NCBI GenBank assembly: GCA_964276515.1
Contig: OZ193909.1
Span: forward strand, 4,526,001-4,590,000
Length of the DNA: 64,000 nucleotides
Direction of reading: 5' to 3'
Source: Gordius albopunctatus
Taxonomy: Eukaryota
Numbering within the stretch: position 1 is the first letter of the stretch; the number at the start of each line of letters is the position of its first letter. Of the stretch, positions 5,460-58,797 are shown in pieces. The notes under the pieces were generated by a model. The model saw only the letters and a program-made list of their open reading frames with translations. It searched no databases and had not been told where the DNA came from. A program made the translations under genes and the position numbers.

Positions 5460-6606
5460 TATTCACACTTGTATTAGTTATAGTCAAATTGCCTGTATAA
5501 GGTACCGACAAGGGAATTCATTGGGCCCATGTTGTCTTGCAATTCAAAATTTTGCAAAGCCTATTTCCTTTAAATGTACCCTTACTTTTAATGTTTGGAA
5601 TCTCAACGAGGCCATCCAATTGTGCCCACTTCCCGGATTATTGCAAAGCCATCCATATTAATGAATATTTGGAACGATCTTAACTTAAGCAGAGCTGGGG
5701 GGAATCTAATTTTTCAAGCACCAAACCTAATTGGCTTTCTATTTTTTACACTATAAGCATTGAAAGAAAATTTTAAAATGTATTTTTTAAGATATCTCCA
5801 CAGAAACTTTGAGATTTAACCTGAATTAAAACATTCAATGTGCTTTTTTGCGCTCCCCTTTTTCTGAACCATTACAATTTAATTTTAAATTAAAATATTC
5901 ATTTATTTTGCTCTATTATTAAATTTTTGCACTGCCCCTTTAAAAGCAAACGAAGGCTAAGATTTTTTTAGCGAAAATATTCAATTTAAAATTTAACATT
6001 CACAATTGGTTCTAAGCCTCTTTACCGGCCAAATCAGAAGATTTAAAAATTGGTCTTCGTGGCAGCATATCCTAAGCAACTTTTATATACTCAATGAAAT
6101 TCGGTAAGGGTTGAATTTCTAAGCTTATACCACAAAATTTCGACCACCTGAGAGCTATAGCATATAAATGTCATAATAGAGACCATTTAATTTTAATGTT
6201 TGAGACGGATGGATTGGGATTATGGTCTATTCTTGCGATCCGTCAATTATCTGTCATTAAGCTGCAACGATACCAATCATTACAAACTTCGGTCCCTCGC
6301 TTTCAAAGGTTCCGGTCGCGAGTGGCTTGAAGTCTATCTCAGCCTACTTTTGGGAGCGAATCTGGACGATTTGGGCTTCCATAAACTGTAGCTTTAAGGT
6401 TGGGTATTAGTTACTAACGAATTTCTCTGTCGGGATTGTCTTTCATTAATAGACTAACGGCAAACACCCTCTATATTTTCTGGCTAATTTTTATTATCCA
6501 ATCATGGCCGTTAGGCAGCCATGATTGGACCTGTGGATTCCTGCAGGGCAAGCCTGCTATCGCCCACAGCGTTTATTACTAATAAACTAACACTATATAT
6601 GACCAT

Positions 6607-6720
6607 ATCTTCTTCTTTATCAGTTATTTGGTCCCACATTGGTGGGGTTTGTTTTGATGAGTCTCTTCCATCTTGACCAGGTTAGTGCCATGTCTTGACG
6701 AATCTCTTTAGTTTCCATAA
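6607..6720 (-). mobile_element. 3' terminal fragment of an RTE-clade LINE
   Basis: Closely matches the 3' end of the RTE copy at 50215-50300. The minus strand translates METKEIRQDMALTWSRWKRLIKTNPTNVGPNN*, followed by a short (GAA)n tail typical of RTE elements. Confidence 0.85.
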
Positions 6721-6735
6721 ATTTAAAGGAAGTGC

Positions 6736-7068
6736 TCACGCCCCGCATCTCGAGTATGCGTTCACCAAGATCTGTGACGTTATGGGTCTCGACAATATGA
6801 TCAAGATTAAACAGAACCTGGAGTGGGTTTCCACGGACAAGAATCCATATGATATGACATAATAAACAACAATGTGGCGAAATTTTTTATGATATAAAGT
6901 ATATATGAGGTGAATAGAAGGTGCTATATGTAAAGGTGTAAGATCGCGAAATCCAAAAGAGCGACTATAAAACGGTGGTAATTCTTTATATATCCGCGTA
7001 ATGTTAATGCGCGATTGGGTTAGATTGGTTCTGGACCTTCGTTCACCGAAATTTCGCCACCTGCTCAT
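6736..7068 (-). other. 110-codon ORF or promoter-like region downstream of the RT-RNase H ORF; function unknown
   Basis: Its ATG overlaps the TGA of the upstream polymerase ORF (ATGA at 7068-7065) and the N-terminus is Arg-rich. The same DNA carries two CCAAT boxes and TATATAAAG on the minus strand, so it may be non-coding. Confidence 0.3.
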
Positions 7069-8646
7069 GTGTCCCAGTCGAATAGCTCGTCTTCTTCCTC
7101 GTAGATATCAGGGATAGGCTGGCCCTCCGGCGGGATACCTGCGAGGATGGACGGAACCGTGTATCGCTCTGGTGGGATCCAGGTGCGCGAGGTGTAGTCG
7201 GCCGGATTATCGTCGGTCGGCGTCCATTGTACGCTATACCTGATGGCTAGGAGGGCGTCCAGGCCGTATTCTTTTACGAAACTCGAGATGAGGTCCTCGA
7301 TGGCCGGGGAATTGGATCCGCCTTTTATCAGGACGTAGTAAGCGCTCGATGAATCGGTGCGGATGCGTGGGAAGGGATGGTCATCGTATTTACCGACCAG
7401 GTATCCGTATAGTGCTCCGCTGGTTTCCGTGATCGTGATGTGGGGGCTGTCGGGAAGGGTGTAATTCATGGCTGCCGCTGCATCCGCGAATGTGATTGAT
7501 AATTGTCTGTCAGGGCAGTAGATTCGAATGTGTTCGCTTGACGCATCCGTGTAGATGGTGACATCGGGGGTAATGTACAGGGGGATGCGATGTTTTAAGG
7601 ATTCGATGATGACAAATAACTTGAAGCATGCCCTATTCATATTGAACAGGCGGGAGCGGTTCGAGAGGTACGCATAGAACGGAGCCAGCAGCTTTGACAT
7701 GCCGGTTAAGTTGTACAGGAAATAATTTAAGACGCCTAAGGCCTCTAGGAAGACCTGTGTGGGGGGAGCCGTGTTCGTGGGGAATGCGTAGAATAGAATG
7801 TCGGAGGCATATTCGAGGCGCGTGATAACCTGCGTCGTACACCGAATCGAGTGGTCCTCGAATGATATTTTAAGGCCTAAATATTCTATGTCCCTTTCGG
7901 GGAGTAGGGATGACTTTTGGGCATTGAACGTAAGACCCCACTCTGCGGCCAGTGAATAGATTGGCTCTAAGTCCTTCTGGACATCCGTACATGAATCTCC
8001 GTAGGTCAGGATATCGTCAAGGTATACATTGTATTTGCACCTAGTGACTGCCTTGGCGGTAAGGTCTGCTACGATCATTTGAAGCACGTAGGGGGAGAAG
8101 GATGCCCCCATGGGGAGGACTTTGTAGCGGAATTTCCGTGTTTGGAATGTGTAGGCAGTGTATTTCCGGGCCGAGACGTTCAGGGGTATGCTAAAGAAAG
8201 TGGCCTTGAGGGCGATCTTGGCGGCGTAGAACGCTCGGCTGAGTTGCTTTTGATGTTAGGGGTATCGATGCGAGTTTGATGGGATAATGGATAAAATTTT
8301 TCGATACCTGGGATAAATCTGTTATTACACGGGCGTCGCCGTTGGATTTTGGAATAAAAAAGGTTGCCGATTTAACTATTTCTCTGGTGGTTTCTTCTAC
8401 CACGTGAAAATATTCGGGTTTTCCACGAGAGATGGCTTTTCGCCGGGAGGTTAAGAATAAACCTCCGTGTTTGCGGATTTTGGGCATATCCAGTCTGGGC
8501 ATGAAGCCTTTTTTGGCGATTCGTTTAGTGAAGGGGGACTGGAGGGGATGTGGCCGTAGAGGGCTAGTGGGGGGTAGTGTGGGTTCTCTATTCCAATGGA
8601 ATATAGATTTGTGGAGGTCGAATATGGGCATCATAACAACACGCAC
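7065..8646 (-). pseudogene. Reverse transcriptase-RNase H of a hepadnavirus-like or DIRS-like retroelement, lightly disabled
   Basis: Joining ORFs 8646-8191 and 8111-7065 across one frameshift (about 8245-8260) gives FFIPKSNGDARVITDLSQVSK ... AAKIALKATFFSIPL ... YKVLPMGASFSPYVLQ ... VYLDDIL (8024-8013) ... GLTFNAQKS ... IEYLGLKI. RNase H motifs follow: IYTDAS, HITITE, RTDS, WTPTDDNPADYTSR. The motif-A Asp codon reads GCC (Ala) at 8213-8211. The segment is much richer in GC and CpG than its flanks. Confidence 0.85.
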
Positions 8647-10471
8647 TTAATTCCTAGTGTTGAAGAGAAGGGAGGGCGCCCTCTAGTCTGGTGTAATTTG
8701 TCAATGTAAAAGATAGGGATAATTAATTTTGTATATAATTTAAAAAGTAAAAGTTTTAGGATAAAAAAAAATTGTGAATACATTCCTCTCCCCTATATCT
8801 ACGTATTAAATCTATTAAACAAAATTTTTACCGATTAATTTGCAGGTAATGGACGTTTGAAAAACGCTAAAATCGCGTTTTTGGCGACTTTGACAGCGAA
8901 TATTTAAAAAACTTGATGTATAGGGATAAAACTAAAAACATATTTGTGTTCACAGTAAAAAACTCTACCAGAATCTGCAAATAGTTTGCAGGTTAATTTC
9001 ACAAGTCCATTATTTGTTGACCAGTGTTATTATATAAGATATAAATTGGTCATAATGGAACCAATTTTTATCTCAAACCCCAAAACACAAGCTAGATGAG
9101 TATCTTAAGGCAAGAAGCATTATTTTTCATAATGAATTTATTGAGATCTTATATAATAACGTTAAAATAATGACAAAAATACGAGAGTAAATTTTGAAGA
9201 TATCATTATTAATAACAAGTAATTATCTTAACATTGTAAATACAATAAAATAGGCATTGTTGTTGGAAGAACATAACAGTTTTGAGATCTTACGTTAATT
9301 GCACATATATAACATATAACATAAAATAAAAAATTTTCTTTAAAGCACAATTTACACTTCTCCATTTTATTTGATTTGAGCAGCTTGCTCTTTTTTGTGT
9401 TGGGTGATGAACTTGTTGCGCATAAACTCATTATAGGTCTAAATAATTTTATACTATATAAGCTATACAAATAAGTAACAAATACCTAAATACGCTAAGG
9501 GCTACTAACACTATGTCTATTAAGATTATATTACAAATTTGAAATTTGCGCGAAGCGGATAATTAGGTGCCTAAGTAATTACTATCAAAAGTTTTAAAAT
9601 CATATTAAATTGCATTAAATACCCTAAATTTAAATCTCATAAATAAAAATTTTTAATTAGTTAAATGAAGACTTAATAGATAAAAATTAAAGTCGAGATC
9701 TCGCCGATAAAATCTCGTCTCGTCTCGAGGTCAAAATTCTCGTCTCGATCTCGACTCAAATTTTCAAAATCTCGTCGAGACGAGGCCGAGATTTTTCAAG
9801 ACGAGACGAGACGACCCCGAGATTTTTCTCGGTTTTTCCGCATCACTAGTAAACAGCGCGTGTGTAGTATGTACTCCAATGTACTCCTTTTTCCAGACAT
9901 AGTGGAACGAATTTCGATAAGGAGAAAGGGTTCACAAAAAAGCGAATAAATTTAAATATAGAGGTGTAACAAAAAAAAATAAATGAATGGTCCTATAGTT
10001 GAAACTTTAATCTATAGAAATATATTACTATTTTTCACTAAATATTAAAAATCAAGAAGGCTTAAAAAGGGCATTTTGGCACCTTCAATCTCGTATATCT
10101 AAGAAACTGGTAATTGTGGGAAAAAAAATAAAAAAAAATATTATTGTTTCAGCGCAAAATTCTCTATCAGAATTATTGGTCTCTGATTGTAGGATGTGAT
10201 CACGAAGTCAATATTTGTAGAACTGTGTTATAACACCTACGTTATAAAAATTTGTATTATCCTTGTAACTATCATAAATAATGTCATAACTTAAAATTAT
10301 ATAATTTAGTATTATAATATTCTTATTTATTGTATATTTAAATATGTATTTTAACATTCATGCACTGCATAGGCATTCTTATCTGTCACTTGACTATGTT
10401 TCAGATGACACCAATTCTGATTTTAATAGTAAAAATATCCTGTTCACCAATCTACAGTACTATTAATTTAT

Positions 10472-10814
10472 CGTTATACGACATCCGGGACGTCAGCAAT
10501 ACGTCAGTCACACCACACGTGACATACGTGACCTAACGTCGTCAATTTTAGGAAACAAGTTTGTCACACCAATAGCGTCAATCTACTCTATCTTCCTAGA
10601 AGACTATCGATATATTTAGATTATTTAGAAACTAAGAATCGTTCCATATAAAATATCGATTTATGGAAATCTATTACTCACCAACACCATATTATCCCTA
10701 TATAAACTCGCACCCTTAATCAATACAGACACACACAGTTTTGTATTTTTATATTCCCGATTATAAATGTTCGCCGTTTAATAAATAATAACCACGCATT
10801 CTTAAAAGTTTACA
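10472..10814 (+). mobile_element. Possible solo LTR
   Basis: CpG-rich 5' part, then CCAAT, ctatataaa and AATAAA in LTR order, ending in ...ttaca. The 5' end reads CGTT rather than TGT and no TSD was found. Confidence 0.3.
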
Positions 10815-11857
10815 GGATATAAGGCACTTCTACAGGACTTAGTCATATTTACACAGTAATATCATTTGGAATGTTTTTATATAAAAAGGATAGAGATGAA
10901 TTGCTTGATATGATTTGTGAAAAATTAACCCTTAAAATATATTAGTGTCGAAATTATTAAATTGTAAACAACTAATTTTACTATCCTCTTACAAATTATT
11001 TACCTTTAAAATTAAGAATATCCATGCTTTATAAATTACGAATGTCAATAATTTTTTATAAACAATATAAAAAAATATCTACAAAATTGTCTGTCAATCT
11101 ATAAATTGCTATAAAATGAAATCTTAAGGTCAAAGTATAGATTTTATAGACTTAAAGTAAGTGCCAAGATTCAAATAATATAAATCAAATTTTTTTATAG
11201 ATAAATAAGAATCTATGATGTTTTTACAGAAAAAAATATTCTGTAAAAAATTATGAGGTTTGCATCCTACGAAGTAAATTGTATGATTAATAGTATTAAC
11301 CTTATATTATTATCATAGCACATCATTATATTAGTATATTGCCTCGAATGTTTGGGTAGATATGAAAGAACATATATAAAGAATAATGTCCGATTTGCCG
11401 CCTAACCTATAGAAGACTATAAAATGTATACATATAGCACGATTTTGTGTATTATAATTAAAGGCAAACGTTCATATAATAATGCAAACATCTTAGTTTA
11501 AACTCTTAGCAGAAAATTACAACAAATTTTGAGGTATATTAACACGTTTAACAATTTGAGGAGGAAAAACGTGCAACACCAATGAAGGATAAGAATTTTT
11601 ATAATGACCCTAAAGATAACTTTTAAATGTCTCAAAACTCCATTCAATATTAATATCTTTAATAAAACAAAAAATCTCTTAGTTGATTATGAGAAAAAGA
11701 TTTATGGAAAACCTAGCCAACATGTTGTAAACGAAATGTCGAATTTGGATTTCGCTAATCAATTTGCATTAAAACCCGATAAAATTTAAAGGTCCAGCTG
11801 AGGGTATCATTTCAAAATGTCACACGCCAAAATGTCACTGAATCTCACGATCTAAAT

Positions 11858-12920
11858 TAGAGGTCTGCATGGGCCGAAATTTCAGGGTCAGGCCCGGCCC
11901 ATACCCGCACAAATATATATTTTTTTACCCATACCCGCCCCGCAAAATGACAACAAAAAATGCGCCGCATCAGGCCCGCACGAGAAAAAAGCGTCAATGT
12001 TTTCAAAAAAAATTTATTTTTATAGAAACAATTTTTCATGTATGAAAAAATTGTTATAGCATATAGAAACGATATTAATAAAGAAAATTATAATTCAATA
12101 TTGTCATTTAGAAATAATAAACTGTCTATTCTATCACGTAGTAGTCTCTTACTAAACGTGCGTTCACTTGTAGCGCTTGTGGCTGGAATTGCCAAAAACT
12201 GTACAGCTAACTTTGTCAAATTAGGTAGGATAAGGCCGTGTTCTTTCCACCATGAAATAATATCAAGCTCATCATCTATCGGTTTAAGATTTAATTTAAA
12301 ATAAGTATCAAATTCATTGCTCTCCTCAATCTGCTCTCTTCATCGTCCTCCCAAACGGAGATATCCATATCGACTTCACCAATAGCTAATTGCCTACATA
12401 CCTGAGCTGAATTGCTCATAGATGGACGACTGATGCAAGAAGAGCTAGAATCTTCTTGCATTAATTTATTTAAAGTTTGTGTTACCATGGTTTTAACAAG
12501 AATAGCAATGTTGATATTATAAGTTTGTAATAAGAAGGAGAAGTGTAGCTAAAACTAATTAATTATAAAATAAAATTTTTTAATGAATTACCTTAAAGCT
12601 TAAAACAACGTCAATGAGATCTTGGAACAAATATTAAGCAATCTAAGAATTTGAAAAGCGAGGGAAAAAATAAACTATGAAGTTAAAAACAAACACTACC
12701 TTCTATCCATTCAATTAATTTACTTAATTAACGAAAAATATAATATTAAATTTTCCCTCAAAATAATACTGTTCAAATAGCAAATTTTTGTTAGAAAAAA
12801 TAAATTTTTTATCATCAAGATAATAAATGCATTTTTTTGTGTCAATACTAAATTTTTTCACTTATCAAAGCCCAAGCCCGGCCCGCAATTTTTTTAGTGC
12901 TCATTTTCAGGTCCGGCCCC
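11858..12920 (-). mobile_element. hAT transposon remnant (C-terminal dimerisation domain)
   Basis: Minus strand about 12276-12110 translates DDELDIISWWKEHGLILPNLTKLAVQFLAIPATSATSERTFS, the hAT dimerisation signature. A hAT-like terminus tagaggtctgca lies at 11858 with GCCCG subterminal repeats. Confidence 0.8.
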
Positions 12921-13563
12921 TGAATCTCACGAACCCAATCTCACGATTTACTCATTGCGCAAGCGCATAATTTCGATATGATTGAATTCAAATTCTCTAG
13001 AAAGCAAAAACTTATATTAATTGCTGACAACTATGAATAAAAAAAAGCTAAAATTGGGATAAAAAATCAATCATACAACCGTTGTAGGCAGAAATATTGT
13101 ACAGGGAAACAATATAACACATGATCACTTAGCAATTCCTCATAAAGTTAAAATTATAACTATTACTAATCCTGTAAAACTTTAGGTGTTATATGAAACC
13201 TATTTTAGGTTTTATGAGGCATGTATAATCTAATTCAAATAATATGAGCCCTACAACTGAACTGTAAGTTTTATGAATTAGAATACATAACTTATTTTTA
13301 GAGAATACTTCTTATGCTCATGAAAATATTTATCCATATATACGACAAAGTCAATGCTATTATATGCATGTTGTATTTGTTAGATATGTACAATAAAATT
13401 AGACCATATAATTGATTTATTGGTATTAATTGAATCATTAAAACCTCAATGACTTATGGCACAGAGATGGCTTAATTTAGAGCAACAATGTCACATTTGT
13501 ATATCTTTTTTAAAATTATTAAATTTCAAATTAAATCACTTGAGTTAAAGTTACCTGATTTAA

Positions 13564-15049
13564 CCCTCCATCGTACCTATGGGGTCTGACAGACCCCACG
13601 AAAGTTATAATTTAACATCACTTAAACAGTTTAAGATTTAGAGATCTGGTTTTTTTTAGAGTTTTCCTAAATACACAAAAGCTACATTCCCGGAAAATTT
13701 CATTCGATTTACTCCAATACTTTTTGAGATATAAGCGTTTGGGGTCCAATAGACCCCATAAGGCAAGTTAGGAAAGTTTTTTTGTTTTGGCCAAAAAAAT
13801 TTTTTCATTTTTTTACTTAAAAATAGTAATTTAAATATGTATATAACATTTGAAATGAATATCGCTACTCAAAATTTTAATTATTGACAATTATTGATGT
13901 TCATGTGGAGCTATTTTTAGTAATTGTTGTAATCAGCTGTTATGAGTTGGCCAAGCATCTTTTGGCAAATCATTCCCTAACAATGGTGGGAACTCTAAAA
14001 AAAATAAAAGGCAAATTCCACCAAATTTTGGCCAAGCTAAAGATGCAAAAGTTTTATCAAGTAATTTTCTTTTCCAAGAAAATCTAACATTAGTATCTTA
14101 CATTCCGAAAAAAACAAGCAGGTGATGTTGCTGTCATCTCTCCATTATGACCAAAAAATTGACCCAGAATCTGGGACTGCTCAAAAACCAGAAATAATCA
14201 CCTTTTACAACATGACTAAAGGGGGGGTTGATATAGTGGATCAACTTTGTGCATCCTATAATGTTGCAAGGGTGTCCAATCGCTGGCCCCTTACTGTTTT
14301 TTTCACCTTACTAAATATCGCAACCATAAATTCTATGCTAGTTTATGAGTTTAACCATCAAATTCGCATGTCAAGGCAAAAATTTATAAAAATGTTGACC
14401 AGAGAACTCTCCAAAATACATATGGTAAACAGGTTGAATAACAAACAGCTCCATAAAGATACAAGGAAATTCATTAAACGATTGTACAACGTTGAAGAGA
14501 ATCCTGAACCAAGATCTGATAAAAAACGAAGATGTTCCAGTTGCCCCCGCAAGCGAGATGTAAAAACAAGATTTTTGTGCAATTCTTGTCAAAACCCGGT
14601 CTGTTCTAGTCACATTGTAATGTTGTGTGAAAAATGCAGTGAAAAAAACGAAAAATAAAACACCTATTTTTAAAGTCTTCTATTTTTTTTCTGTATAATC
14701 ATTTTATCGTGAAATTATGTTTTTTATATTTTTTAAACATTCTTTTAATAAAAAACATTTACTTTTTATATTTTTGACGAATTGTTTAGAATCTGTGACA
14801 AAAATAAAACATGTCACTTTATATTTTATGAATTTTCTTCATGTTTAGTAAATTGCATATAATTTTTAAATTAATATTTATAATCAAAAATTTTTTTTTA
14901 CAAACCTACAAGAGGCTTTAATAAACTTATATTTAAAATTAGAGAACTTTTTCTTTAATGGTATTAAAGCTACGATCATTTTAAGATTGGGGTCTATTAG
15001 ACCCCATAAGTCATTCTGGGAGAGTAATTTCTATAGGTACGATGGAGGG
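13564..15049 (+). mobile_element. Internally deleted piggyBac element
   Basis: TTAA at 13560-13563 and 15050-15053, and perfect 17-bp TIRs ccctccatcgtacctat / ataggtacgatggaggg. Palindromic subterminal repeats ggggtc-N5-gacccc occur at 13581, 13741 and about 14989. Only the C-terminal transposase remains (frameshifted TMVGTL region, then KPEIITFYNMTKGGVD, RWP and the Cys-rich domain at 14122-14658). Confidence 0.95.
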
Positions 15050-36124: not shown

Positions 36125-39100
36125 TAGATAATAGAATTAGTAATGAATGACTGCCAGAAGAGTGTTTTTAAACGTAACTCTTCCTCTATTTCTCCAATTT
36201 TTAATTTCCCATAGCAGCGGCCTGGCCTGGTTAAATTGTACAATTTGTCAACCATTTCGACTCGACGGCATCGAGGAAACCATCTCAAGGTCGAAGCATT
36301 TTTGTCGATGCTGTCATGTCATGAATAATACGTGACGTGTGTACGTGCAGATTCATAGTTAATTATGGTGGCAGGGGAGGCAACTTAAAAAAGCTGTTAC
36401 TTTAAGCGTTAAAAGCGATTAGGCGCACCAATTTTGCGATGAAAAATGCCATTTTTTGGGCACAGACTCATGGGAAGGTGCATGGGTGTAGCCGGGGGGG
36501 GGCAGGAAGGGGCAGCTGCCCCCTCTAACTCCAAAAAGTTGTTGAAACTTATTGAAATTATGCCCAAAATTTCAAAAAAAGTTCATTTTGCCTCTCCCTA
36601 AATCATTATTGCCCCCTCCCTCTAATTCCAATGCTGACTACGTCCATGGAGTAAGCATAAATCTTTCAATGAAAATGCCATTTTTCGGCCGTAGAGTCAC
36701 GAGAGGATGGAAATTAAATCGGAGGAAAAGCACGAAATTAAGTTAATTATAATATCCCAATGTATCGCAGAAAAATTTCGTCAAGCCCCAAGAGGGGATA
36801 ATGTCGAAAGAAATCAAACGCACGAGTGACAAACAAAAAAATACGATATTGTTATCCAAAACAACAATCCAGATTAAATTATAGTGCAAAAATAAGGGCA
36901 TCACGAATTTCAGGTTTAAAAACATTTTTTAAAAACGAAATTCAGCAGTATAAAGGTGTTAAGTAGAAAAAGCCGTGATTTCAATGAAAAAGGCAAAAAA
37001 TTTATTGAATAAATCCGTTTTTTACATAAGAGTTCTCATAAAATAATGGCCAGGGTCATTTATAACCTCCGTTCTGGTCCAGGTTGTGTTGGGTCCGAGT
37101 CTGAGGTCCGCTGGAAGGCATGAGGTCTGGTGGCGAAACGTACGCTTGACTCGAGGCCAATCCGTTGGTTTTGGCTCGGAAAAAGGCGTCCCAAGACTAT
37201 CGATTAAAAATAATTTTAATTTAAACACTTAGCTTTTTTTTACTAATAGATAGTGTCGTAAAAACGGCTGGGTCTTGTTGCTTGGTCGATCTTTGGGGTC
37301 TTAGTCGATTAAACATAGAGAGACCAAAGATTTGTAGGCCAAACCTTTGGTCTCTCTATGTTTAGCCGACTAAAACCCCAAAGGTCGTAGAAGCAAAATC
37401 CAGCCGTTTTACAACACTTAGAGTCCCAAATAATGGTATATGATGATACATGTTAAAATATTATATTCCAGTCAAAACCGTTTAATTGCAAAGCCTTTGA
37501 CCTGAAAAAAATTCGCGATTAACCGATATTTCGCGATTAAACGATGGGTAAAAAAGTATATGTACATTATATTAAATATTCATTTCTTACGCTTCGCGAT
37601 AAAACGATATTTTATATAATCATCTGGTTGATTTAAGGACTCGAAAATGTTTGTGAATATCCGATATTGTACTATTAAGCGATTTGTCAATAAACGGTGT
37701 TTTTGTTAATATTATCGTTTGGAAAAAAACAAAATGGCGGTTAACTTCGCGATTAAAAGATTTTTGCGATAATCCTATCTGTGATTAAGAAGTTTCGACC
37801 GTATATATTGATGAGCAGGCATATATAGCCACGGATGGAAATTGTATATTGGGTTTTACAATTTCACACAGTGATTTCCTGCTTAATATATATGTATAAA
37901 TAAATTCTTTGGGGTCGTGTGTAATTGAAGTGATGCATCCCGAAATTTGTTTACGCAATCGGCTACAATATAAAAGCGTGGTGGGGGTGAAGGGGCAAAA
38001 ATTCGCTCTTTTATTTAATTTGAGTAGTCAATTAACCGGGCCAATGTATATATCAACGAAATAAAAGGTGAGCTGGAGCAGCAAGTAGAGTTATAAAACA
38101 AAGGCTCCCCTTTTTTCCTCTCTTTTTCTTAGTCGCATAAATCAACGCCAAACGTTTTCTGGTCAAAACATAGGTCAGCTCGTGGTTAGTGAACCAGAAG
38201 CAAAGGTCGTAGAAGCAAAATCCAGCGGATTTTCGGATTTTACAACACTAGCTGCAAGTAGAGAGCCCACACCGCGACATTGTGTTCCTAATTTTAAACA
38301 GGCAACCATGTGTAAAGATTTATGGGAAAGTCGAATATATATATTTGGAAAAATATTTTAGAAAAGCGGCCATTTTTAATTAAGACATTTGTTTCTACAT
38401 TGTACGTTGGAATGAATTCCTATTTAAAGAATTCGGCAGCGAAAAAATTGCAAACTTGCTTTGAATTGCACCGTGCCCGGCCCAATATTTTGATTTTGTC
38501 ACGAGCCGTCCGAAATATTATATCCGGTAATGTTTGGTAAAATTTATCATTTAAATTGTATTAGATAAAACTCGGGCCTTCGGCCCTCGTGGGAAGGGGG
38601 AAGGGGAGGAGGGGATCGAAGGGGGAACTCATCTACACTCCGTATAAATGTATCATATTTGCTATGCAATTTATGGAAATACTTACGTGAATATTGCAAA
38701 ACGAAGGTTGGAAGCACTAAATAAGTGTATATGCCAAATATCATAAAGGGGGAGAGAGGGAACGAAGGGGAAGCTTTATGGTTAGTTAAATTCTACGGGA
38801 GTTGTATTACCAAAAAGTCATAATAGCAATGGTAGGAACAGGAACAATCATAATAGTCAAAAAAAACGAAAAAAAAATTTTCGAATCACATTTTGGCCAA
38901 AGGTCATTATTTTCCATTGGTCAGCAGCCAGGACACGGTAAAAGTGGATATAAATTCATAACAGTCAAAAAAAACGAAAAAAAAAGTTTTCGAATCACAT
39001 TTTGGCCAATGGTTATTTTATTCCATTGGTCAGCAGCCAGCGGAGGGCCAAAAAGTCATAATAGCAATGGTAGGAACAGGAACAATCATAATAGTCAAAA

Positions 39101-42100
39101 AAAACGGAAAAAATAATTTCGATTCACATTTTGGCAGAGGGTCATTTTTTCCATTGGTCAGCAGCCAGGACACGGTAAAAGTGGATATAAATTCATAACA
39201 GTAAAAAAAACGAAAAAAAATTTTCGAATCACATTTTGGCCAATGGTCATTTTATTCCATTGGTCAGCAGCCAGCGGACGGACAAAAAGTCATAATAGCA
39301 ATGGTAGGAACAGGAACAATCGTAATATTCAAAAAAAACGAAAAAATAAACTCGGATACACATTTTGGCCAATGGTCATTTTTTTCATTGGTCAGCAGCC
39401 AGCGGATGGCCAAAAAGTCTTATTATCATTGATAGTAACAAGAACAATCATAAGAGTCAAAAAAAACTCCGGGATTCTAACCCAAAAACTAGATAAATTG
39501 CATAGCAATTATTAAAAAGTATAGGGTAATTATCAATGTTAACCTATTCAAAAACGAACAAAAAATTTTGATTTATTTGGCCAATGGTAATTTTTTTCAA
39601 TTATCAATGTTAACTTATTCAAAGAAAATTTGAGCCATTTTGGGCTAATACTTTTTGAGTTATGGACGCTGAAATGGCCAAAATCACGCTTGGGCGTGTT
39701 TTACAAATTTCACTATTTTCCACATATCTTCAAAAGTATTGCCGCTAGCTTCGTAAATTTTGCTGTATTTTAATCCTAATAAAATTCTCTATCAGAAAAA
39801 TGTAACATAAAACCGCAAACTTTTGTGGTTAGTGTTTTGTGGTCAAATTAGTGGAAAACTAAAAAAACCACCTTCTCTGTTATATATCATCACCAAATTT
39901 GCTATGGGGACTCCTTTATGCTTAGTTATCAAATTTCAAATTTAAAAAGTTTGGGCACGGCTATGAGTTGGTTGATAAATAGAAAATTCACAAATAAATT
40001 AAAAATATTTCTAGATGGCGGTATAATCAAATATTAAGGAATATAAATTTTAACCATATTTTATTACTAAAGAGCCATATAAAGTATTGTTTGATAAATA
40101 AATCATTTTGGGATATAATTAAAGGAAAATTTTTAAAACACCTACTTAGCACAAAGCAATTGATCGGATTGTAATTTATACCTTAAATAATAAAGGTTAA
40201 AAGTATCTCTTTCTTCAAATATTGTTTAACGTTTAGAGATATGAAAAAGAGTTTCCTTTGACTAAATATAAGATGACGCAATAATGAATCAATAAATATT
40301 CTTTTATTATATAGATTTTATTTAAATAATGATAATGCGCAATAATTAAATTAATTTCGATTTTCACTAAATTATTTTGTGTTGTGCTGTAACCAAATTA
40401 ATTTCTACCGTGTTAAGCGTATAACTGCGTCCGGTGATTGTGTATGGAGACACTTTGAGTATAACATCTGATTTTTTGAGGTTAACTTTATTTAATTTAG
40501 ACGGGAAAAAAAAGATTTTGCCGGACCATTAGGATGTAAAAGATGAGCGACAATATATTCGTTTATTAGATCCTTGTCTACAATTAAGGCTAACCACCAT
40601 TTATTCTGGTATCTACATGCCACGTAACCATTTAGATTTTCAAAATCAATTTCATTCGCTATTTGAATTTCTTCCTCAAAATATTCACTTGAATTAGAAT
40701 ACATCTTTGTTTTAATTATCTTTCTGTCAATAGGTATTGAAGCATGTAGCTTTTGCATCCCAGAAATTGCTCGATTGAATCGAGAGGTAAGTTTCAATTC
40801 CTCTTGTTTAAACTCCTCATTCGTCATATAACCAAAACTTATATTATCGACTAATTCGATCTCATAATTACTTAATGTTTTACCTGGCTGTAGATTTGGA
40901 GTGGATAAAATTCCTTTTTCCATTTTGATTTTTTTTGCCCGTCTTGCCATATAGTATGAAACATTGAAAACGGTCTTAATTTTTTGGGCCGTCCAACTAT
41001 CAGGGAGTAGTGTCAGAATACGATATTTATTACTTTTGTTTAATAAAGGAAAACCAGATGAACTATCTAGAAGTTCGGAATCGATCGAAGATTGAGCGTT
41101 TTCATGGGTGATATTAAAGGTTGTGTCAAGGCTTTTCTTAAGTTTGGCTAATTTTTTCAACGGATAATTTATTTCCCCTAGTCTCTTTATTTTGATGGGC
41201 GATTCGGCAATCATTGGTAATGATGTATTAAGGGCTTGAATAGATGGTCCTGCTATTTCTAAAATCTTATTTTTTTTGGTGAATAAGAAGGATCAAAAGA
41301 AGGGTTCATATTGGGATTATCCCGACCTTGATAAAGTTTTTTGCGACATACATCACATAATTTTGCAATGGGATCTACAAAATTCATCAATTTGGCAACT
41401 TTTCTTATTCCTATGACTTCATCCTTATGTGTCTTCAATGGATTACAGCAATAGTAGTTTTTAGGCATAGAAAATTATATTAATAAAAACTAAGTTTTTA
41501 AATCAATGTTAGAGAGTGGAAAACATTAAATTGATATGAAACCGATCTTGTTTTTAAATCAATAACGCTGTTGCACATGTGGTAATTAATTATTAAATTA
41601 TAGTAAGCTGGATGACTTGCCATATGCTATTTCATAGGCAATAAAAAGCATGGCATTTGCCATTCATTAATGAATGAATTCATCTATGTTTGAAGTAAGA
41701 GATACCTTAAACCTTTATTATTTAGGTATAAATTACAATCCGATCAATTGCTTTGTGCCATGGTTAAAATTTATATTCCTTAATATTTGATTATACCGCC
41801 ATCTAGAAATATTTTTAATTTTTTAAATTTGAAATTTGATAACTAAGCATAAAGGAGTCCCCATAGCAAATTTGGTGATGATATATAACAGAGAAGGTGG
41901 TTTTTTTAGTTTTCCACTAATTTGACCACAAAACACTAACCACAAAAGTTTGCGGTTTTATGTTACATTTTTATGATAGAGAATTTTATTAGGATTAAAA
42001 TACAGCAAAATTTACGAAGCTAGCGGCAATACTTTTGAAGATATGTCGAAAATAGTTAAATTTGTAAAACACGCCCAAGCGTGATTTTGGCCATTTCAGC

Positions 42101-44651
42101 GTCCATAACTCAAAAAGTATTAGCCCAAAATGGCTCAAATTTTCAGAAGATGTTATTTCATATGAGGTCTAAATCCTCACAAAAAATTAGCCCTATCTGA
42201 GATGGTCGGTCGAAAATCGTCTTTTTTTTGACGAATCGACATGGAATATGTTAAACTATTCAAAAACGAAAAATTAAAAATTTCGATTTATCTGGCAAGT
42301 GGTCATTTTTTCATTGGTCAGTAGCCTGCGGACGGTCAAAAATTCATATTATCAATGGTATTAACAAGAACAATATATTAATTTAATTTAAAAAAAAATA
42401 AAAATTTTTGTCCTCTCCGGGTCTCGAACCATCAATTTAGAACGTTCGCCGGGATTCAAACCCACATTAAATAGAGGCATAAGCCTTTGGAGGGGAACAG
42501 GGAACCATATAAATAGAGCCATAGGCCCTTGTAGGGGAGGGCATAGGGTAATTATCAATGTTAAACTATTCAAAAACGAAAAATTAAAAATTTCGATTTA
42601 ACTGGCCAATGGTAATTTTTTTCAATTATCAATGTTAACTTATTCAAAAACGAAAAATTAAAAATTTCGATTTATCTGGCCAGTGGTCATTTTTTCATTG
42701 GTCAGTAGCCTGCGGACGGTCAAAAAGTCATATTATCAATGGTATTAACAAGAAAAAAATATTAATTTAATTTAAAAAAAAAAAATTTTGTCCTCTCCGG
42801 GTCTCGAACCCGCAACCTCCAGGTCGGGAAGCTGGTGTAAATAACTTGGTGGACGGACGGACGGACAACCAAAAACGAGCCCATAAATTGCATAGCAATT
42901 AAAATTAGAGTTAACTGCAATTGTTAAGTGATTTAAAACCCATAAATAACTCTGGTAGATATATATTGTGGACGTTATTTTATCTTGTTACAATTTAATT
43001 ACATATCTACATTTTTTGATATACGAAAAATCCAAAGTAAAAAATGAATAAATTTTACATTACGTATCAAATAAAATAAATGAGCTTTCGAATATTTACT
43101 AAAAATTCTAGAGTTCGATAACTTAACGAGAATATACGTTTTAACAATCGGTGTAGTCAGAGGGAGCGCCAAATTAATAGGATTTTGAAATTTTAGCCAT
43201 AATTATATCAAATTTTAAAGAAGGATTGGATCTAGAGGGGTGCAGTCGCCCCTCCTTGCCCCCCCCCGGCTACGGCCATGATAACAAGCCTTTCGAAACG
43301 TATTTCTTCGAAGTGGGGAAGGTGACTGAGGAGAGTAAAGGATTATTCAAAACAAAACGCATTCGAGATGCTCCATTTCTGAGATTTTTTTCGAATTACG
43401 TGAAACTTACCAGGCAATTCATATGAAAAAATTTAAAAGATAATATATAACCAACAATTTGTGAAGACAGCTTTAAGCAAAAGTGATTTGTGTGATATTT
43501 TAAATTCAATTTTTACAGAATAGAGGCAAAAGTATGTTGATATTTATTTAAAATTTGGGTAAACAAACCTTTAAGGGAATTTAAAGCTTTAATGTTAAAT
43601 AAGCCATAAAGTTTGAGAGGGGGGTTGTTTATTGTATAATAGACCCTCAATTAATGTAAAAATTTTGAATTTAAGTAAATATTTATTTTATGTAAAAGAT
43701 ATTTAAAACATAATCTATCAATTAGCATTAAAAAAATTTGCAAAAACCCCCAATATGAAAATTTCCATACAAATTTATAAAATGTGAGCAACACTAAAAA
43801 CAGTGATTTTTAAGATATATTAATTTAAAAAACATAAGCAACCCCATTTTTATGTGTAAATTGTATCTCAAATCCTTTTGTTTATGCTTGTTGAAAATAT
43901 GCATATGTATAAATGGATGAAATATGTTAAATGCTATATTAAGAATGACTCAAGCTACTATGCTTTAGGCCATTTTACATATCTTTTCTTGAAACATATT
44001 TATGTAAACATAAAATAAACAAAGGTTAACAAAAAAGGTTGTTTGAAAGACAAGAAAATCTTATTTATTTTGAGATTCAGCATTTAGAAATAAACATAAA
44101 TTATATCCTAATTTAATAAATGCTTTTTTAGAAATAAATACCTTTTCTAATTGACTAACTTGTAAATTCAGTGGTCACAATTATAATTTGAAAACTAATA
44201 ATTTAATATATAATGAAATTATTAAAAATTATTATAAGTAAAAGTTAAATGTAAACCTTAAGTTGTGGTTATAAAATTAAAAGTTCTTAAAATATATGAA
44301 TTATAATGTGTTAATTTTATTTTAAAATAGCCTTCAAAATTTATGAATTGTGAGGTCCAAATTCCATTATCTATACTTAAAGGTAATTATATTTTAAAAA
44401 TAATAGGCTATAATTTTCTAATAATTAAATATTACTTTATGGACGCTTGATGGATCAATTTGCCAAGCCTGATACATTTCTTCAATATAAACGCTTGAAT
44501 TGCCATTTAAAAAGGGCTCTGCAAAAGCTGATGATGAATATTTAGAGGTTCCACTTAAGAGGAAGCATAATGGATTATTTTTAATCAGCTTGCGTCCAAA
44601 TCCATTTATATTATATAATAACGAGGGTGATGCGCGAATTAAACAATCCAT
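21206..44651 (-). CDS. OGDH: Mitochondrial 2-oxoglutarate dehydrogenase E1 component, at least 23 exons
   Basis: Ordered minus-strand exons encode [17 protein letters not shown] (44651-44436), SWDAFF (37196), [12 protein letters not shown] (35641), [80 protein letters not shown] and [10 protein letters not shown] (21885-21731). The last exon is 21341-21206 and ends ...YYESPL*. Confidence 0.97.
23285..23435. mobile_element. hAT-like MITE (TAGTG family) in an OGDH intron
   Basis: Imperfect TIRs tagtgtagtaaaacggctgg ... ccagccgtttttaaaatacta. Confidence 0.6.
34329..34720. mobile_element. Diverged solo arm related to the long-TIR transposon at 39624-42248
   Basis: Shares ordered blocks (gaggattt, cattttggg..aatacttt, ccaaaatcacgct, tgtattttaatcc, attctctatc) with the inverted arms of that element. 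Boundaries are approximate. Confidence 0.6.
35756..35950. mobile_element. hAT-like MITE (TAGTG family)
   Basis: tagtgttgcaaaa ... ttttacagcacta, flanked by ctccgttg and ctccatcg (6 of 8 identical), a decayed 8-bp TSD. Confidence 0.7.
36086..36122. repeat. (TA)n microsatellite abutting an OGDH splice acceptor
   Basis: Uninterrupted TA run next to the AG at 36084-36083 on the minus strand. Confidence 0.95.
37251..37420. mobile_element. Foldback hAT-like MITE (TAGTG family)
   Basis: Termini tagtgtcgtaaaaacggctgg / ccagccgttttacaacact, with an internal perfect 20-bp inverted repeat at 37310-37329 and 37345-37364. Confidence 0.7.
38561..42900 (-). mobile_element. Non-autonomous Helitron/Helentron-like (DINE-1/HINE-type) element with internal tandem repeats, interrupted by a nested transposon
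   Basis: 18-bp inverted repeat at 38659-38676 and 42881-42898. A (GTCC)n microsatellite lies near the minus-strand 5' end (about 42851-42866), and tandem repeats of about 110-125 bp span about 38810-39470. A 3' hairpin gggcc-gaa-ggccc is followed by CTAA (CTRR) at 38564-38561. Confidence 0.55.
39624..42248 (-). mobile_element. Long-TIR DNA transposon deletion derivative, superfamily uncertain
   Basis: Inverted arms of roughly 450-600 bp (39624-about 40220 versus about 41690-42144), near-identical apart from deletions. They enclose minus ORFs 41468-41259 (CCNP..H..LCDVCR, zinc-finger-like) and 41214-40492 ([10 protein letters not shown]...KGILSTP fused to GYVACRY..WWLA..LHPNGP). No DDE core is visible. 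Confidence 0.8.
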
Positions 44652-50214: not shown

Positions 50215-52140
50215 ATCTTCTTTATCAGTTATTTGGTCCCACATTCGTGATCTTGAGCGGGTGAGTTCCATGTCTTGACTAATCTCTTTAGTTTCCATAA
50301 CTTAATCGACTTGTCCTTTCCACGTGACACGGGGTCGTCCTCTTCCTCTCTTCCCCGGTACCTCCATGTCCAGTACTTTTCGATTTACGTCTTCCGTATC
50401 CCTCCTTAGTATATGCCCATACCACCTTAGGCGATTTTATTTAATAATGTCCGTTGAATATCCATTTTTGTGATGAGAAAGTCATTGGTCATATGGTCGA
50501 GCTTAGTATAATACCCCAAGCTCCACCGTATCATTCTCATCTCTGTGGCTTGTAATAGCTTTCCTTGCGTGGTGTTTAATGCCCATGTTTCACTTAAATA
50601 GAATAACGCCGGTCTTACGATGGATTTGTAAGCTTTGCTCTTCAACCATATTGGCATTTTCTTGTTGCACATTACACCGGATATACTTTGCCATTTAAGC
50701 CATCCTTTTTGAATCCGGGCATTGATTTCAGTTGCGCAACCTCCCTCTTGATGTAGCATAGAGCCGAGGTAAGTAAACCTGTCTACTTTTGGGTACTTTA
50801 GGTGGTCATCCAGTGATGGGGTGCTTGTACCGTTCATTTCCATGTATACCGTTTTTCGATCGTTGACCTTTAAACCATATCCAGCTAAGCGCTTTGACCA
50901 CTTTTCTGCTTCTTCGAATACCTTCTCCCTTGTTTCCTCACATAGTACTATATCATCGGCATATAGCATACACCATGGCGATGGCTTTCGAAAGTCCCTC
51001 GTTATCGTGTCTATAATTATATTAAATAAAAAGGGGACTTAAAGCAGAGCCTTGATGTAATCCAATATTAACCCGAAAAGGTTTAGAGTCTCCAAATGTC
51101 GTCCTAACGCAAGAGTTTGAGGCTTCATAGATATTTTTCATAAGCCGTATATATGCGTCAGGGATATTTTGTTTCCTCAGGCACCACCATATTAAATCGC
51201 GAGGGACCGTGTCATAAGCTTTCTCCAAGTCGATAAAAACCATATGTAGGTCTTTCCTCTTTTCACCATACTTATCCATCATTTGTCTTAGGGCGAAGAT
51301 TGGGTCGATTGTGGATTTTCCGGCCACGAATCCGAATTGATTAGTCGATATTTCCACCTCGTTTTTCAGCCTTGTTACTAGGATTCTTTCCATAAGCTTC
51401 AAGGAGTGACAAGTTAGCTTGATACCTCTGTAATTGCCGCAGTCCTGAGGGTCTCCTTTTCCTTTGAATAAGGACATAATCGTGCTTGCTCTCCATTGAT
51501 TAGGGATTCGCTCTTCTACCAATATCTTGTTAAGGAGGTTCGTCATGGTGGTGACTCCTTCTTCATTTGGGCCATTTGCTTTTCCTTTTTGCATCTTGTT
51601 CATTTGTGTCCTAACTTCATCCTTCTGAAAGAGTTCGACCATACTTATATTTGGCTCAATTTCGAAAAGGGAATCCTTTTCATTTGCAATATTCATAAGT
51701 TTCTTAAAATATCCTTTCCACCTTTCCTTAACTTCCTTCGGCTTGAATAAGGTTTGACCCTTCTCGCTTTTGACTATTTTAAGAACTCAGACATCTCGAC
51801 TTTTCTTCTCCCTTATCTTGGCCAATTTGTACATAAGCCTATCGCCCACTTTATGATCCAGTTTGTTTGCCATCTCGGTGTACGCAGCATTCTTCGCTTT
51901 TGCAACGGCCTTTTTTGCGGTCCTCTTTGCGTCCCTGTACTCTTGATAATCCTCCGACTTTTTTGATTTATGCCACCGTCTATATAGATTTTTCTTTATT
52001 TCGATGAAATCTTTAACCGATTGATCCCACCACCATAGTTCCCTATTCATAGCTTTGCCTCCTTTGGTCTGTCCTAGAACACGAATCGCTGTTTCCTTAA
52101 TGTCCTTAGATAACGTCTCCCAATCGTCGTCTACGTCCCT
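50215..52140 (-). mobile_element. 5'-truncated, decayed RTE-clade LINE
   Basis: Fragments read ELWWW, DCGNYRGIKL, QFGF, FIDLEKAYD, GLHQGSALSP, MLYADD, FTYLGS and ETWA, with stops and frameshifts. The 3' end has a short GAAGA tail. Confidence 0.93.
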
Positions 52141-52501
52141 TTTAGTGTTTCGACCTCGAAAACAAAATCTCGATCTCGTCTCGACTTTTTAAAAAAAAAT
52201 ATACGGAATAAAAATTTCTCCCGTTTTATTGAAATATTAAACAAGTGTTAAAAAATTAAAATGGCAACATTTTATATTTTTTGAAAAACCTTAATACGCA
52301 AACTTTTTAAAGATTTAGTGGGACCCACATCTCATTCACAATATAAAAACATTAATTCATTCATAAAAATAACATTTTCTATGGAAAGTGCAGACTAAAA
52401 AACTATGATTAAATTTGAAGTATAGAAAATTAAATTTTATTGTTCTAGCAAATTTTAACATTTGTATCATATCACTGTGTTTGTCAAATATAAATAGACT
52501 T

Positions 52502-54732: not shown

Positions 54733-55270
54733 TTATGGGACTTTTTGTATACCCTTTTTCCCAATAAGAGATTTATGTATATGAGGAATGACACCTAAAA
54801 TTTTAAGTATATAAAATAAGAGATTTAATATTACCTCCTCCAGCAATAGTTGCTTTAATTAAAGAGTCCAATTCTTCATCCCCACGTATAGCTAACTGTA
54901 AATGACGAGGGGTTATCCTTTTTACTTTCAAGTCTTTACTAGCATTGCCTGCTAATTCCAGTACCTTCAAAAATATATAATTCAATATCTTAAAATTACT
55001 TCTGCTGTTAAATACTCTAATATAGCAGCACTATAAACAGCCGCAGTAGCACCTACACGCCCATGGCTTGTGGTACGAGTTTTTAGATGTCTATGAATTC
55101 TTCCTACAGGAAACTAATATTTTAATTACATAATATATTATATAAATAAACCTGCAAACCAGCTCTCGCTGATCTCGTTGTAGCCTTAGTTTTCACTTTG
55201 CCTGAATCTTTGCCAGCTTTTCCTCCTGCCTAAGGAAAATTTAACTTAAATTTATTAAGCATCTCACCAT
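54733..55270 (-). CDS. H2AZ: Histone H2A.Z (H2A.V), 128 aa, 5 exons
   Basis: Exons 55270-55268, 55229-55152, 55113-55000, 54964-54835 and 54794-54733 (3/78/114/130/62 nt) give [12 protein letters not shown]...[15 protein letters not shown]...[42 protein letters not shown]. Confidence 0.98.
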
Positions 55271-58502: not shown

Positions 58503-58797
58503 GAATGTTATATCTAATATATATTATAGGCATTTGAAATAAGAAATATACTTTGTGCATTAAAATTTGCTGGAGGAAGGGCCTGTTCCATAACATTTAG
58601 GGCATCATTGTTAGAATCTATTTACAATAAATTTAATAGTTAATAGTAACTAACAGTTAATGTTTATGATAATCAATCATGTGACATTACTTGGTATTAT
58701 ATCATCCACTGAGTTTAATAAAATTGCACCTTGACTAGAAACTTAAAAAAATCTCAAAAAATTATAGACATATCTTACTTTCTTGATTTTCTATGGG

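What the first reader, a model, noticed from the sequence alone, without database searches (positions are those of the whole stretch)
6607..8690. Foreign RT cassette fused to the 3' tail of a resident RTE LINE, a probable trace of its integration mechanism
Seen: on the same (minus) strand the RT cassette and its trailer run directly, at about 6720-6726, into the last 115 or so bases of an RTE LINE, including the stop codon and (GAA)n tail. That tail matches the RTE copy at 50215-50300. Known: LINE reverse transcriptases recognise their own 3' ends and can switch templates, producing 5'-foreign/3'-LINE chimeras. Inference: either RTE machinery captured the RNA of an integrase-less retroelement or virus in a single event, or this is a family that borrows the RTE tail for mobility like a SINE while coding its own RT. 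No TSD was found.
Basis: partly seen in the sequence, partly recalled or inferred. Interest (0 to 1): 0.85.

Follow-up and report, generated by a model that had tools for sequence, protein, structure and literature searches.

The report
RTE insertion into hepadnavirus-like retroelement fossil
A decayed reverse-transcriptase gene whose nearest database relatives are hairworm proteins lies near a short LINE tail, but the DNA touching the tail is a backwards scrap of a second, related element, so the tail is likely a later insertion that probably carried only that scrap, not the trace of how the gene itself got in.

Summary
The RTE tail (6608-6719, minus) and the broken RT/RNase H gene (element A, 8646-7065, minus) are real. 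The DNA touching the tail (B, 6720-~6847) is a PLUS-strand RNase H piece of a second family member, only 13/41 aa identical to A. No target-site duplication flanks the whole cassette. A degenerate 14-bp repeat (6594-6607 / 6848-6861; zone p 0.002-0.014) brackets tail + B. Strongly folding DNA lies on both sides of that unit. Best reading (0.45): a one-off RTE insertion co-inserted an inverted 128-nt scrap of family RNA (twin-priming type) into the 3' region of an older A. Sequential insertions are the main rival (0.30). Whole-cassette capture gets 0.12 and a tail-borrowing family 0.03. A's closest relatives are 12 Gordionus (hairworm) proteins on five chromosomes. No integrase, protease, methyltransferase, recombinase or terminal protein was detected. 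Trees and fold search lean to the HEART/hepadnavirus side, but DIRS/VIPER is not rejected (AU p 0.46). No genome or reads were available.

The parts
6608..6719 (-). 3' end of an RTE-clade LINE (last ~31 codons, stops, (GAA)n tail), 5'-truncated at about 6719-6720
   Evidence: clade label from the C-terminal motif of the 50k copy is recalled, Pfam gives only RVT_1
6720..6847 (+). Piece B: RNase H C-terminal fragment of a second, divergent member of the RT family, antisense to the RTE tail and to element A. It is stop-free over 41 codons; similarity collapses after the N-P of the NPAD motif (weak to ~6874)
   Evidence: 11-17 of 41 aa identical to seven family rows, 13/41 to A; 46% nt identity to A, 26% at third positions
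6594..6607 (.). Left copy of a degenerate 14-bp direct repeat (candidate TSD of tail + B); its last 5 nt (CCATA) also recur at 6715-6719 and 6845-6849
6848..6861 (.). Right copy of the degenerate repeat (13 matches, two 1-nt indels; 7-nt exact core). It lies in the 27-nt gap between the end of B and the start of the spacer stem-loop
   Evidence: best of 2146 positions; 8 of 127,949 window positions score as high; p 0.002-0.014 for a 30-nt zone, 0.13-0.50 for anywhere in the cassette
6715..6719 (.). CCATA at the RTE 5' break, which is RTE sequence; rival 5-bp TSD for the tail alone
   Evidence: p 0.03-0.09
6874..7060 (.). Quasi-palindromic spacer: four collinear exact inverted blocks (12, 6, 6, 6 nt) starting just after A's stop codon; predicted long stem-loop
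   Evidence: 0 of 1500 shuffles and 0 of 2114 window segments reach the chain score; fold z -3.2 minus, -2.75 plus; same GC skew as A
6862..7068 (-). Possible second ORF: its ATG overlaps the pol stop codon, and it is open for 69 codons up to the repeat; function unassigned
   Evidence: p 0.015 for an open frame in shuffled spacer; no Pfam, Atlas or family-HMM hit
7065..8255 (-). Element A pol, C-terminal frame: RT core (YLDD; motif A lacks its catalytic aspartate), connection, RNase H, 39-aa acidic tail
   Evidence: model pLDDT 87.9
8191..8646 (-). Element A pol, N-terminal frame (frameshift near 8250); family similarity starts at 8559
8647..8690 (-). 5' edge of the GC-rich segment (with a 12-nt palindrome); AT-rich host-like DNA follows. 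A looks 5'-truncated
   Evidence: no RTE body between 6721 and 14000
6496..6588 (.). Three adjacent hairpins left of the tail; inferred continuation of A's structured 3' region
   Evidence: z -4.8 / -4.6, 0 of 200 shuffles; third most stable locus among 2130 windows; no Rfam hit at E<=1
6200..6495 (.). GC-richer (0.42 vs 0.27-0.32) unassigned segment, possibly more of A
   Evidence: no family or Pfam hit
50216..52146 (-). Reference RTE copy (broken) used to identify the tail

Best explanation
A broken RT/RNase H gene (A) lies on the minus strand, and a 112-nt RTE LINE tail joined to an opposite-strand 128-nt RNase H scrap (B) of a related element sits just past A's stop codon; tail and scrap likely arrived together, in one later RTE insertion into A's structured 3' region. 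Inferred mechanism: the RTE endonuclease cut a short AT-rich linker between two hairpin blocks. RT primed on RTE RNA from one end of the break and on the RNA of a second family member from the other end (twin priming). The two short cDNAs joined at a few shared bases near 6716-6720 and left a 10-14 bp duplication that has since decayed. On this reading A was there first, and how A integrated is not recorded by the tail. Shown: the pieces, their strands and family membership, the repeats and the fold scores. Inferred: order of events, single-event origin, that the left hairpins belong to A, twin priming.
For: B starts at the RTE break and is antisense. B is stop-free and keeps the family's conserved residues for 41 codons, then loses them abruptly where the right repeat copy begins. 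That copy falls in a 27-nt gap fixed independently by the end of B and the start of the spacer stem-loop; p 0.002-0.014. Its length fits RTE TSDs, 7-15 bp with a mode of 10-12 (PMC6007223, passages citing Ichiyanagi & Okada 2008), and 5 bp does not. DNA on both sides of the unit folds unusually well. The minus frame open for 69 codons before the right copy is in register with the longest open frame after the left copy (30 codons vs 7 and 2; weak, about 1 in 3 to 1 in 5). Antisense foreign pieces at LINE 5' ends with TSDs around the pair are documented for L1 and ascribed to twin priming (PMC13174262, section 10 and passages).
Against: The repeat needs two 1-nt indels in 14 bp, which is odd for a tail only ~7% diverged from its sister copy. 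It was found after looking at several models, and over the whole cassette it is not significant (p 0.13-0.50). A rival exact 5-bp repeat flanks the tail alone (p 0.03-0.09), and ~14 codons left of the tail weakly continue B's profile (p 0.04-0.06). The spacer's inverted blocks could instead be motifs conserved downstream of both A and B, which would extend B to ~6950, past the repeat. The model does not explain why a B-carrying insertion landed in a relative of B. Nothing ties the left flank to A by homology. One locus, no empty site, no reads.
Confidence: 0.45

Rival explanations
1. Sequential insertions. A and B are fossils of two family members lying tail to tail (nested or adjacent), and a 5'-truncated RTE later inserted alone into or at the edge of B, with a 5-bp TSD or a target-site deletion.
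For: Exact CCATA at both ends of the tail (p 0.03-0.09). Weak frameshifted continuation of the RNase H profile for ~41 nt left of the tail (p 0.04 vs 146 loci, 0.06 vs 100 shuffles). Collinear blocks shared by the DNA after A's stop and after B. Ordinary 5'-truncated LINE insertions are far commoner than chimeras (general knowledge).
Against: 5 bp is below the usual RTE TSD range, and the inner copy is simply RTE sequence. The left flank has no HMM hit, while B's core scores 32.6 bits. B would need an internal deletion or very uneven decay on both sides of a clean 41-codon core.
Confidence: 0.3
2. One reading: RTE RT switched from its own 3' end to an RNA that already held B (antisense), the spacer and A, and copied 2 kb to 8690.
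For: A is on the RTE strand and looks 5'-truncated. No RTE body lies beyond the cassette. LINE insertions can lack a TSD (general knowledge).
Against: No repeat around the whole unit. It needs a source transcript with A and B already tail to tail. It makes the 14-bp repeat and the structured GC-richer left flank coincidences.
Confidence: 0.12
3. A mobile chimeric family that codes its own RT but uses the RTE tail for integration.
For: The family is multi-copy and dispersed in Gordionus and shows no integrase.
Against: The tail is separated from A by an antisense fragment of another member. One junction in 64 kb. No hit in viral contigs for the tail. The DNA flanking the Gordionus copies could not be read.
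Confidence: 0.03
4. Separate question, what A is. Rival to the HEART/hepadnavirus-side reading (which I put at ~0.55): A is the RT/RH gene of a tyrosine-recombinase retrotransposon (VIPER- or Ngaro-like) whose gag and recombinase were lost with the missing 5' part or lie undetected.
For: The AU test does not reject Gordionus rows + DIRS rows as one clade (p 0.46). VIPER RNase H also groups with hepadnavirus, and only some DIRS carry the methyltransferase (PMC6681497 passages). Dispersed 80-95%-identical copies in Gordionus fit a transposon. That VIPER places YR upstream of RT is recalled.
Against: RT+RH trees put the clade with MT-less, partly PF00336-positive rows, apart from the MT-bearing DIRS rows (SH-aLRT 93 and 95). 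Best fold matches are HBV protein P and an unnamed 634-aa viral protein (TM 0.60-0.62 vs 0.42-0.49 for the caulimo/retro/metavirus rows in the top 18; that library holds no DIRS). GC3 0.63-0.65 against 0.27-0.46 for host exons, RTE and Gypsy in the window suggests an outside origin. No YR hit in any frame tested.
Confidence: 0.4

Closest known systems
Antisense RNA/LINE-1 chimeras (5S, tRNA-half, U5 with L1), ascribed to twin priming (PMC13174262)
   Same: Short, truncated foreign piece antisense to a 5'-truncated LINE, with one TSD around the pair; one-off, non-propagating
   Different: RTE clade instead of L1; the passenger is retroelement coding RNA; TSD degenerate; single locus with no cross-species alignment
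HEART retroelements (Gong & Han 2018, not read; described in PMC12691608 and PMC12440569)
   Same: Invertebrate-genome RT on the hepadnavirus side, decayed copies, no known integration enzyme; Kojima calls their mobilisation unresolved
   Different: The seven Ixodes HEART rows seen in the supplement have LPFG(I/L)RP(A/G)P and (Y/H)(I/L)DN motifs; A has LPMGASFSP and YLDD. They were compared by eye only and not placed in a tree
Proto-nackednaviruses, nackednaviruses and hepadnaviruses (Blubervirales)
   Same: PMG-x-x-x-SP motif B, RNase H ending in NPAD-x-x-SR, best fold matches, structured RNA after pol
   Different: Lacks the clade's FLV(N/D)KN, RLVV(N/D)(Y/F)SQFS and (I/V)SDG signatures seen in Data Set S6; no terminal protein, core, DR1/DR2 or canonical epsilon shown
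VIPER-like / Ngaro-like YR retrotransposons
   Same: RT/RH without protease or integrase; no methyltransferase; hepadnavirus-like RNase H (VIPER)
   Different: No recombinase, gag or split direct repeats detected; known VIPERs are kinetoplastid
Uncharacterised Gordionus sp. m RMFG-2023 proteins (XP_065317776, XP_065315196, XP_065315139, CAK9296138 and others)
   Same: One starred clade with A (98-99); 33-50% identity in aligned stretches; acidic C-terminal tail with a Y/F-x-W-D motif

Membership tests
5'-foreign/3'-LINE chimera of the whole cassette | Foreign part in sense, joined directly to the LINE 3' end | tested here: not met
   The piece at the junction is antisense and from another family member
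5'-foreign/3'-LINE chimera of the whole cassette | One TSD around the whole unit | tested here: not met
   Best 4 nt exact in 8640-8800; best gapped score 4 in 8640-8900
Twin-priming-type LINE chimera (tail + B) | Foreign part inverted relative to the LINE and abutting its 5' break | tested here: met
Twin-priming-type LINE chimera (tail + B) | TSD around the pair | tested here: inconclusive
   Degenerate 14-bp repeat, p 0.002-0.014 in zone, two indels
Twin-priming-type LINE chimera (tail + B) | Both parts present or absent together in alleles or relatives | not testable with these tools
   No genome held
LINE-tail-borrowing mobile family | Many copies with the same junction | not testable with these tools
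   One junction in the window; none in viral contigs; genome not held
DIRS/PAT-like | Methyltransferase after RNase H (in many members) | tested here: not met
   A ends 39 aa after RH; complete Gordionus tails run 64-90 aa with no MT motif
YR retrotransposons (DIRS, Ngaro, VIPER) | Tyrosine recombinase ORF and ITR/ICR or split repeats | tested here: inconclusive
   None detected, but A is truncated
LTR retrotransposon / Ortervirales | Protease-RT-RH-integrase and LTRs; RT inside Ortervirales | tested here: not met
   No such domains; separated from Gypsy/ERV rows at 99
Blubervirales (hepadna, nackedna, proto-nackedna) | Terminal protein upstream of RT | tested here: inconclusive
   Only ~130 nt of GC-rich DNA upstream of the RT similarity; no hit
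Blubervirales (hepadna, nackedna, proto-nackedna) | Clade-specific RT signatures | tested here: not met
   By-eye comparison with Data Set S6
Blubervirales (hepadna, nackedna, proto-nackedna) | Core ORF, DR1/DR2, epsilon, circular genome | tested here: inconclusive
   No core hit; a 15/16 repeat (6135-6150 / 7049-7063) is near chance level; hairpin 6532-6569 has a symmetric loop, not an epsilon bulge
HEART | RT clusters with named HEART sequences next to Blubervirales | not testable with these tools
   No named HEART row could be put in the trees; the grouping with MT-less rows is at 93-95, AU p 0.46
RTE-clade LINE (tail) | 3' end identical to an RTE copy, microsatellite tail | tested here: met
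   clade assignment of the 50k copy rests on a recalled C-terminal motif

The most novel reading that the evidence does not exclude
A and B are fossils of an undescribed hairworm-associated lineage of integrase-free, hepadnavirus-side reverse-transcribing viruses or HEART-like elements with a heavily folded 3' region. Their RNA is picked up by host RTE LINE machinery in the germ line, and B is a direct record of such a capture. LINE-assisted entry would then explain how elements with no integration enzyme come to be scattered over nematomorph chromosomes, which bears on the open question of how HEART elements mobilise.
Probability: 0.12. Interest if true: 0.75.

Novelty: new member of a known kind. 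Interest (0 to 1): 0.4.

Why it matters
The insertion itself is probably a one-off LINE chimera of a kind known from L1, here for an RTE and with retroelement RNA as passenger. The more useful result is the RT family. It is a deep branch, multi-copy in a hairworm genome and annotated only as 'uncharacterized', in the poorly resolved zone between DIRS/VIPER retrotransposons, HEART and the hepadnavirus relatives. A chromosome-level Gordionus assembly exists, so full-length copies can be mapped at once. They would show whether the family carries a recombinase (transposon) or a terminal protein and core (virus), and whether its copies end in LINE tails. That makes one version of the HEART-mobility question directly testable.

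Tried and rejected
No own genome is held, so junction copy number and empty sites were not testable; read support is untested. Related loci: none for P0004 in viral contigs (46 pattern matches, 0 confirmed), for P0001 in metagenome contigs (97, 0), for P0016 in viral contigs (8, 0), or for the RTE tail pattern (0). Whole-unit TSD: rejected. Cassette inserted into an older full RTE: no RTE body in 6721-14000. B as an inverted duplicate of A: rejected, 46% nt and 26% third-position identity. ORF2 as another pol fragment, a core or a recombinase: no support; the best pairwise p 0.013 was with the wrong region and the HMM was negative. Left flank as a mitochondrial insert: many stops under table 5. 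Hairpins as a known ribozyme or ncRNA: no Rfam hit; by eye no hammerhead or HDV core (recalled motifs). A plain gapped alignment of the two spacer arms was not significant (p 0.27-0.51; 0.01 under the strictest scoring); only the block-chain statistic was, and it was designed after the blocks were seen. PF00336 is not diagnostic: sub-threshold in 2 of 8 family rows scanned, absent in A, and present in a DIRS-side row. A profile search to pull named hepadnavirus/HEART references returned 22 proteins, none named so. Troyka/Kuafuortervirus was rejected (LTR elements). The Atlas gave only generic RVT_1 clusters. Earlier scan findings: none in four look-ups.
Full report
Setting. The window is AT-rich eukaryotic DNA with intron-split Mob1 and 2-oxoglutarate dehydrogenase genes and scattered RTE, Gypsy and DDE-transposase remnants. 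The host was not identified. No whole genome is held and no reads were examined, so everything rests on one locus plus protein databases.

Observation. The 112 nt at 6608-6719 are the 3' end of a LINE. They match 50216-50303 (E 4e-16), with 28/28 and 41/46 identity in two blocks and a 25-nt gap in the 50k copy. I call it RTE from the C-terminal motif of that copy (recalled; Pfam gives only RVT_1). Element A is an RT/RNase H gene on the minus strand, split by a frameshift near 8250 and lacking the motif A aspartate. It has no in-frame stops. Its GC3 is 0.65, against 0.27-0.46 for host exons, RTE and Gypsy frames in the window.

The correction. tblastn of fetched proteins on the window showed hits on the plus strand at 6707-6937. 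An HMM of five Gordionus proteins run over all six frames of the window confirms it (21.8 bits, E 1.2e-6), as does an RNase H profile (32.6 bits). The sequence touching the RTE break (piece B) is therefore an antisense RNase H fragment. It is not a copy of A: 13 of 41 aa, 46% nt, 26% at third positions. It is about equally far from the Gordionus rows (11-17 of 41).

Boundaries. No repeat flanks the whole unit, and no RTE body lies to the right. Two smaller candidates exist. CCATA sits at 6603-6607 and 6715-6719 (p 0.03-0.09); the inner copy is RTE sequence. A 14-bp repeat with two 1-nt indels sits at 6594-6607 and 6848-6861, the best of 2146 positions. Eight of 127,949 window positions score as well; p is 0.002-0.014 for a 30-nt zone but 0.13-0.50 for the whole cassette. 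The zone has independent support. B's clean core ends at 6847, and a quasi-palindrome of four exact inverted blocks starts at 6874 and ends at 7060, just after A's stop (0 of 1500 shuffles, 0 of 2114 window segments; statistic chosen after seeing the blocks; fold z -3.2 and -2.75). Left of the tail, three hairpins fold at z -4.8, third strongest of 2130 windows. RTE TSDs are mostly 7-15 bp (PMC6007223; abstract and passages seen; the primary paper was not seen). A frame whose ATG overlaps A's stop is open for 69 codons up to the right copy (p 0.015) and is in register with the longest frame beyond the left copy (30 vs 7 and 2 codons). It has no database hit.

Results against this reading. The ~14 codons left of the tail weakly fit the RNase H columns that precede B (p 0.04 and 0.06), which favours the tail having landed inside B. 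The spacer blocks may be motifs shared by the DNA after A and after B rather than one RNA stem; this would carry B to ~6950. Two indels are many for a young TSD. No model explains well why two divergent family members sit within 400 nt of each other.

Mechanism. I put 0.45 on one RTE insertion that co-inserted B in inverted orientation into A's structured 3' region. Antisense passengers with a shared TSD are described for L1 and ascribed to twin priming (PMC13174262; section 10 and passages seen; PMC2912911 passages, for 5'-junction repair background). Sequential insertions get 0.30, whole-cassette capture 0.12, a tail-borrowing family 0.03, and other histories or mis-assembly about 0.10. In the first two models (0.75 together) the tail says nothing about how A integrated.

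What A is. Two of 4141 candidates passed in the first search, both Gordionus sp. m RMFG-2023. The exhaustive search gave 4048 hits at E<=0.001, and the two at E<=1e-30 are Gordionus. In all, 12 Gordionus proteins on five chromosome-sized contigs belong to the family; some may be one locus annotated twice. None of those scanned shows protease, integrase or methyltransferase. Forms longer than 982 aa were not searched. Trees: 176 RT rows after dropping 74 of 250, mostly bird ERVs; 53 hand-picked RT+RH rows; 36 rows under a mixture model. A and the Gordionus rows form one clade (98-99). It groups with unnamed MT-less proteins from short (mostly 2-4 kb) contigs, several with weak or clear PF00336 hits, at SH-aLRT 85, 93 and 95, apart from MT-bearing DIRS rows. 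The group labels are mine, from motifs and Pfam; no named HEART, VIPER, Ngaro or hepadnavirus row was available. The AU test does not reject a clade with DIRS (p 0.46). A confident model (pLDDT 87.9) matches best an unnamed 634-aa viral protein (perhaps a nackednavirus P; a guess from its length) and HBV protein P (TM 0.60, 0.62); PDB gives only Ortervirales RTs. By eye, A lacks the RT signatures of proto-nackedna- and hepadnaviruses and differs from the seven Ixodes HEART rows (PMC12691608; parts 1-2 of 3 of the text, parts 1, 4 and 5 of Data Set S6 and a term search of S4 seen). VIPER RNase H is also hepadnavirus-like (PMC6681497 passages). So A works like an integrase-free RT/RH retroelement on the HEART/hepadnavirus side (~0.55) or a truncated YR element (~0.4). 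It is not filed as a member of either.

Novelty. Searches for Gordionus, Nematomorpha or hairworm with RT/TE/EVE terms and for HEART/Blubervirales listed no description of this family. S4 of PMC12691608 has no Gordionus or Nematomorpha row, and the nematomorph genomics preprint 10.1101/2024.06.11.598342 (passages; its supplements could not be seen and may list TE families) has no occurrence of 'virus'. The library lacks most subscription papers, Repbase and Dfam, and Gong & Han 2018 was not read. Kojima 2025 (PMC12440569; part 1 of 5 and passages) states that HEART mobilisation is unresolved. PMC11551314 (passages) and PMC11673190 (part 1 of 3) gave background only.

Verdict. Observation partly confirmed; interpretation partly supported. 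It is probably a one-off chimera of a known kind, sitting in a fossil of an apparently undescribed RT lineage. Interest 0.4; the LINE-assisted endogenisation reading has probability 0.12 and interest 0.75 if true.

Noticed in passing
window 6135-6150 and 7049-7063 (and inverted 6874-6885): A third, near-identical copy of the 12-nt spacer motif lies ~900 nt away in A's orientation (15/16). It could be a DR-like or split repeat marking A's far end, or chance; about 0.6 direct hits of this score are expected per 3 kb. It may lie inside a small host element with 16-nt inverted ends at 5911-5926 / 6166-6181.
   Followed up: partly
window 6200-6391 (+): A 63-codon open frame in the GC-richer left flank; no Pfam or family hit.
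   Followed up: partly
window 47008-48586 and 53371-54945: Two copies of a 1.58-kb sequence, 99.6% identical: a very recent duplication or young non-coding mobile element.
   Followed up: no
window 37291-37385: Long near-perfect hairpin (about 45-bp arms), by far the most stable fold in the window; probably a MITE.
   Followed up: no
window 9690-9830 and ~52146-52190: (CTCGT)-rich palindromic repeat ends; the one near 52150 abuts the 5' break of the 50k RTE copy.
   Followed up: no
window 62297-64000 (+): A second RTE-like element running off the window end (translation; recalled motif match).
   Followed up: no
window 58936-60777 (-): Gypsy-type RNase H + integrase ORF of 613 aa; FLYWCH domain fragment at 58191-58523; DDE_Tnp_1_7 fragment at 14065-14658.
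   Followed up: no
proteins P0014-P0016, P0035, P0051, P0095, P0115, P0168, P0279-P0288: Many unnamed RT/RNase H proteins on short (mostly 1.4-4 kb) contigs, MT-less, several with PF00336, one in the barnacle Amphibalanus (P0287). They suggest a large undescribed set of hepadnavirus-side retroelements.
   Followed up: partly
window 38790-42810: Tandem and inverted repeat cluster with units of about 240 nt and shorter.
   Followed up: no
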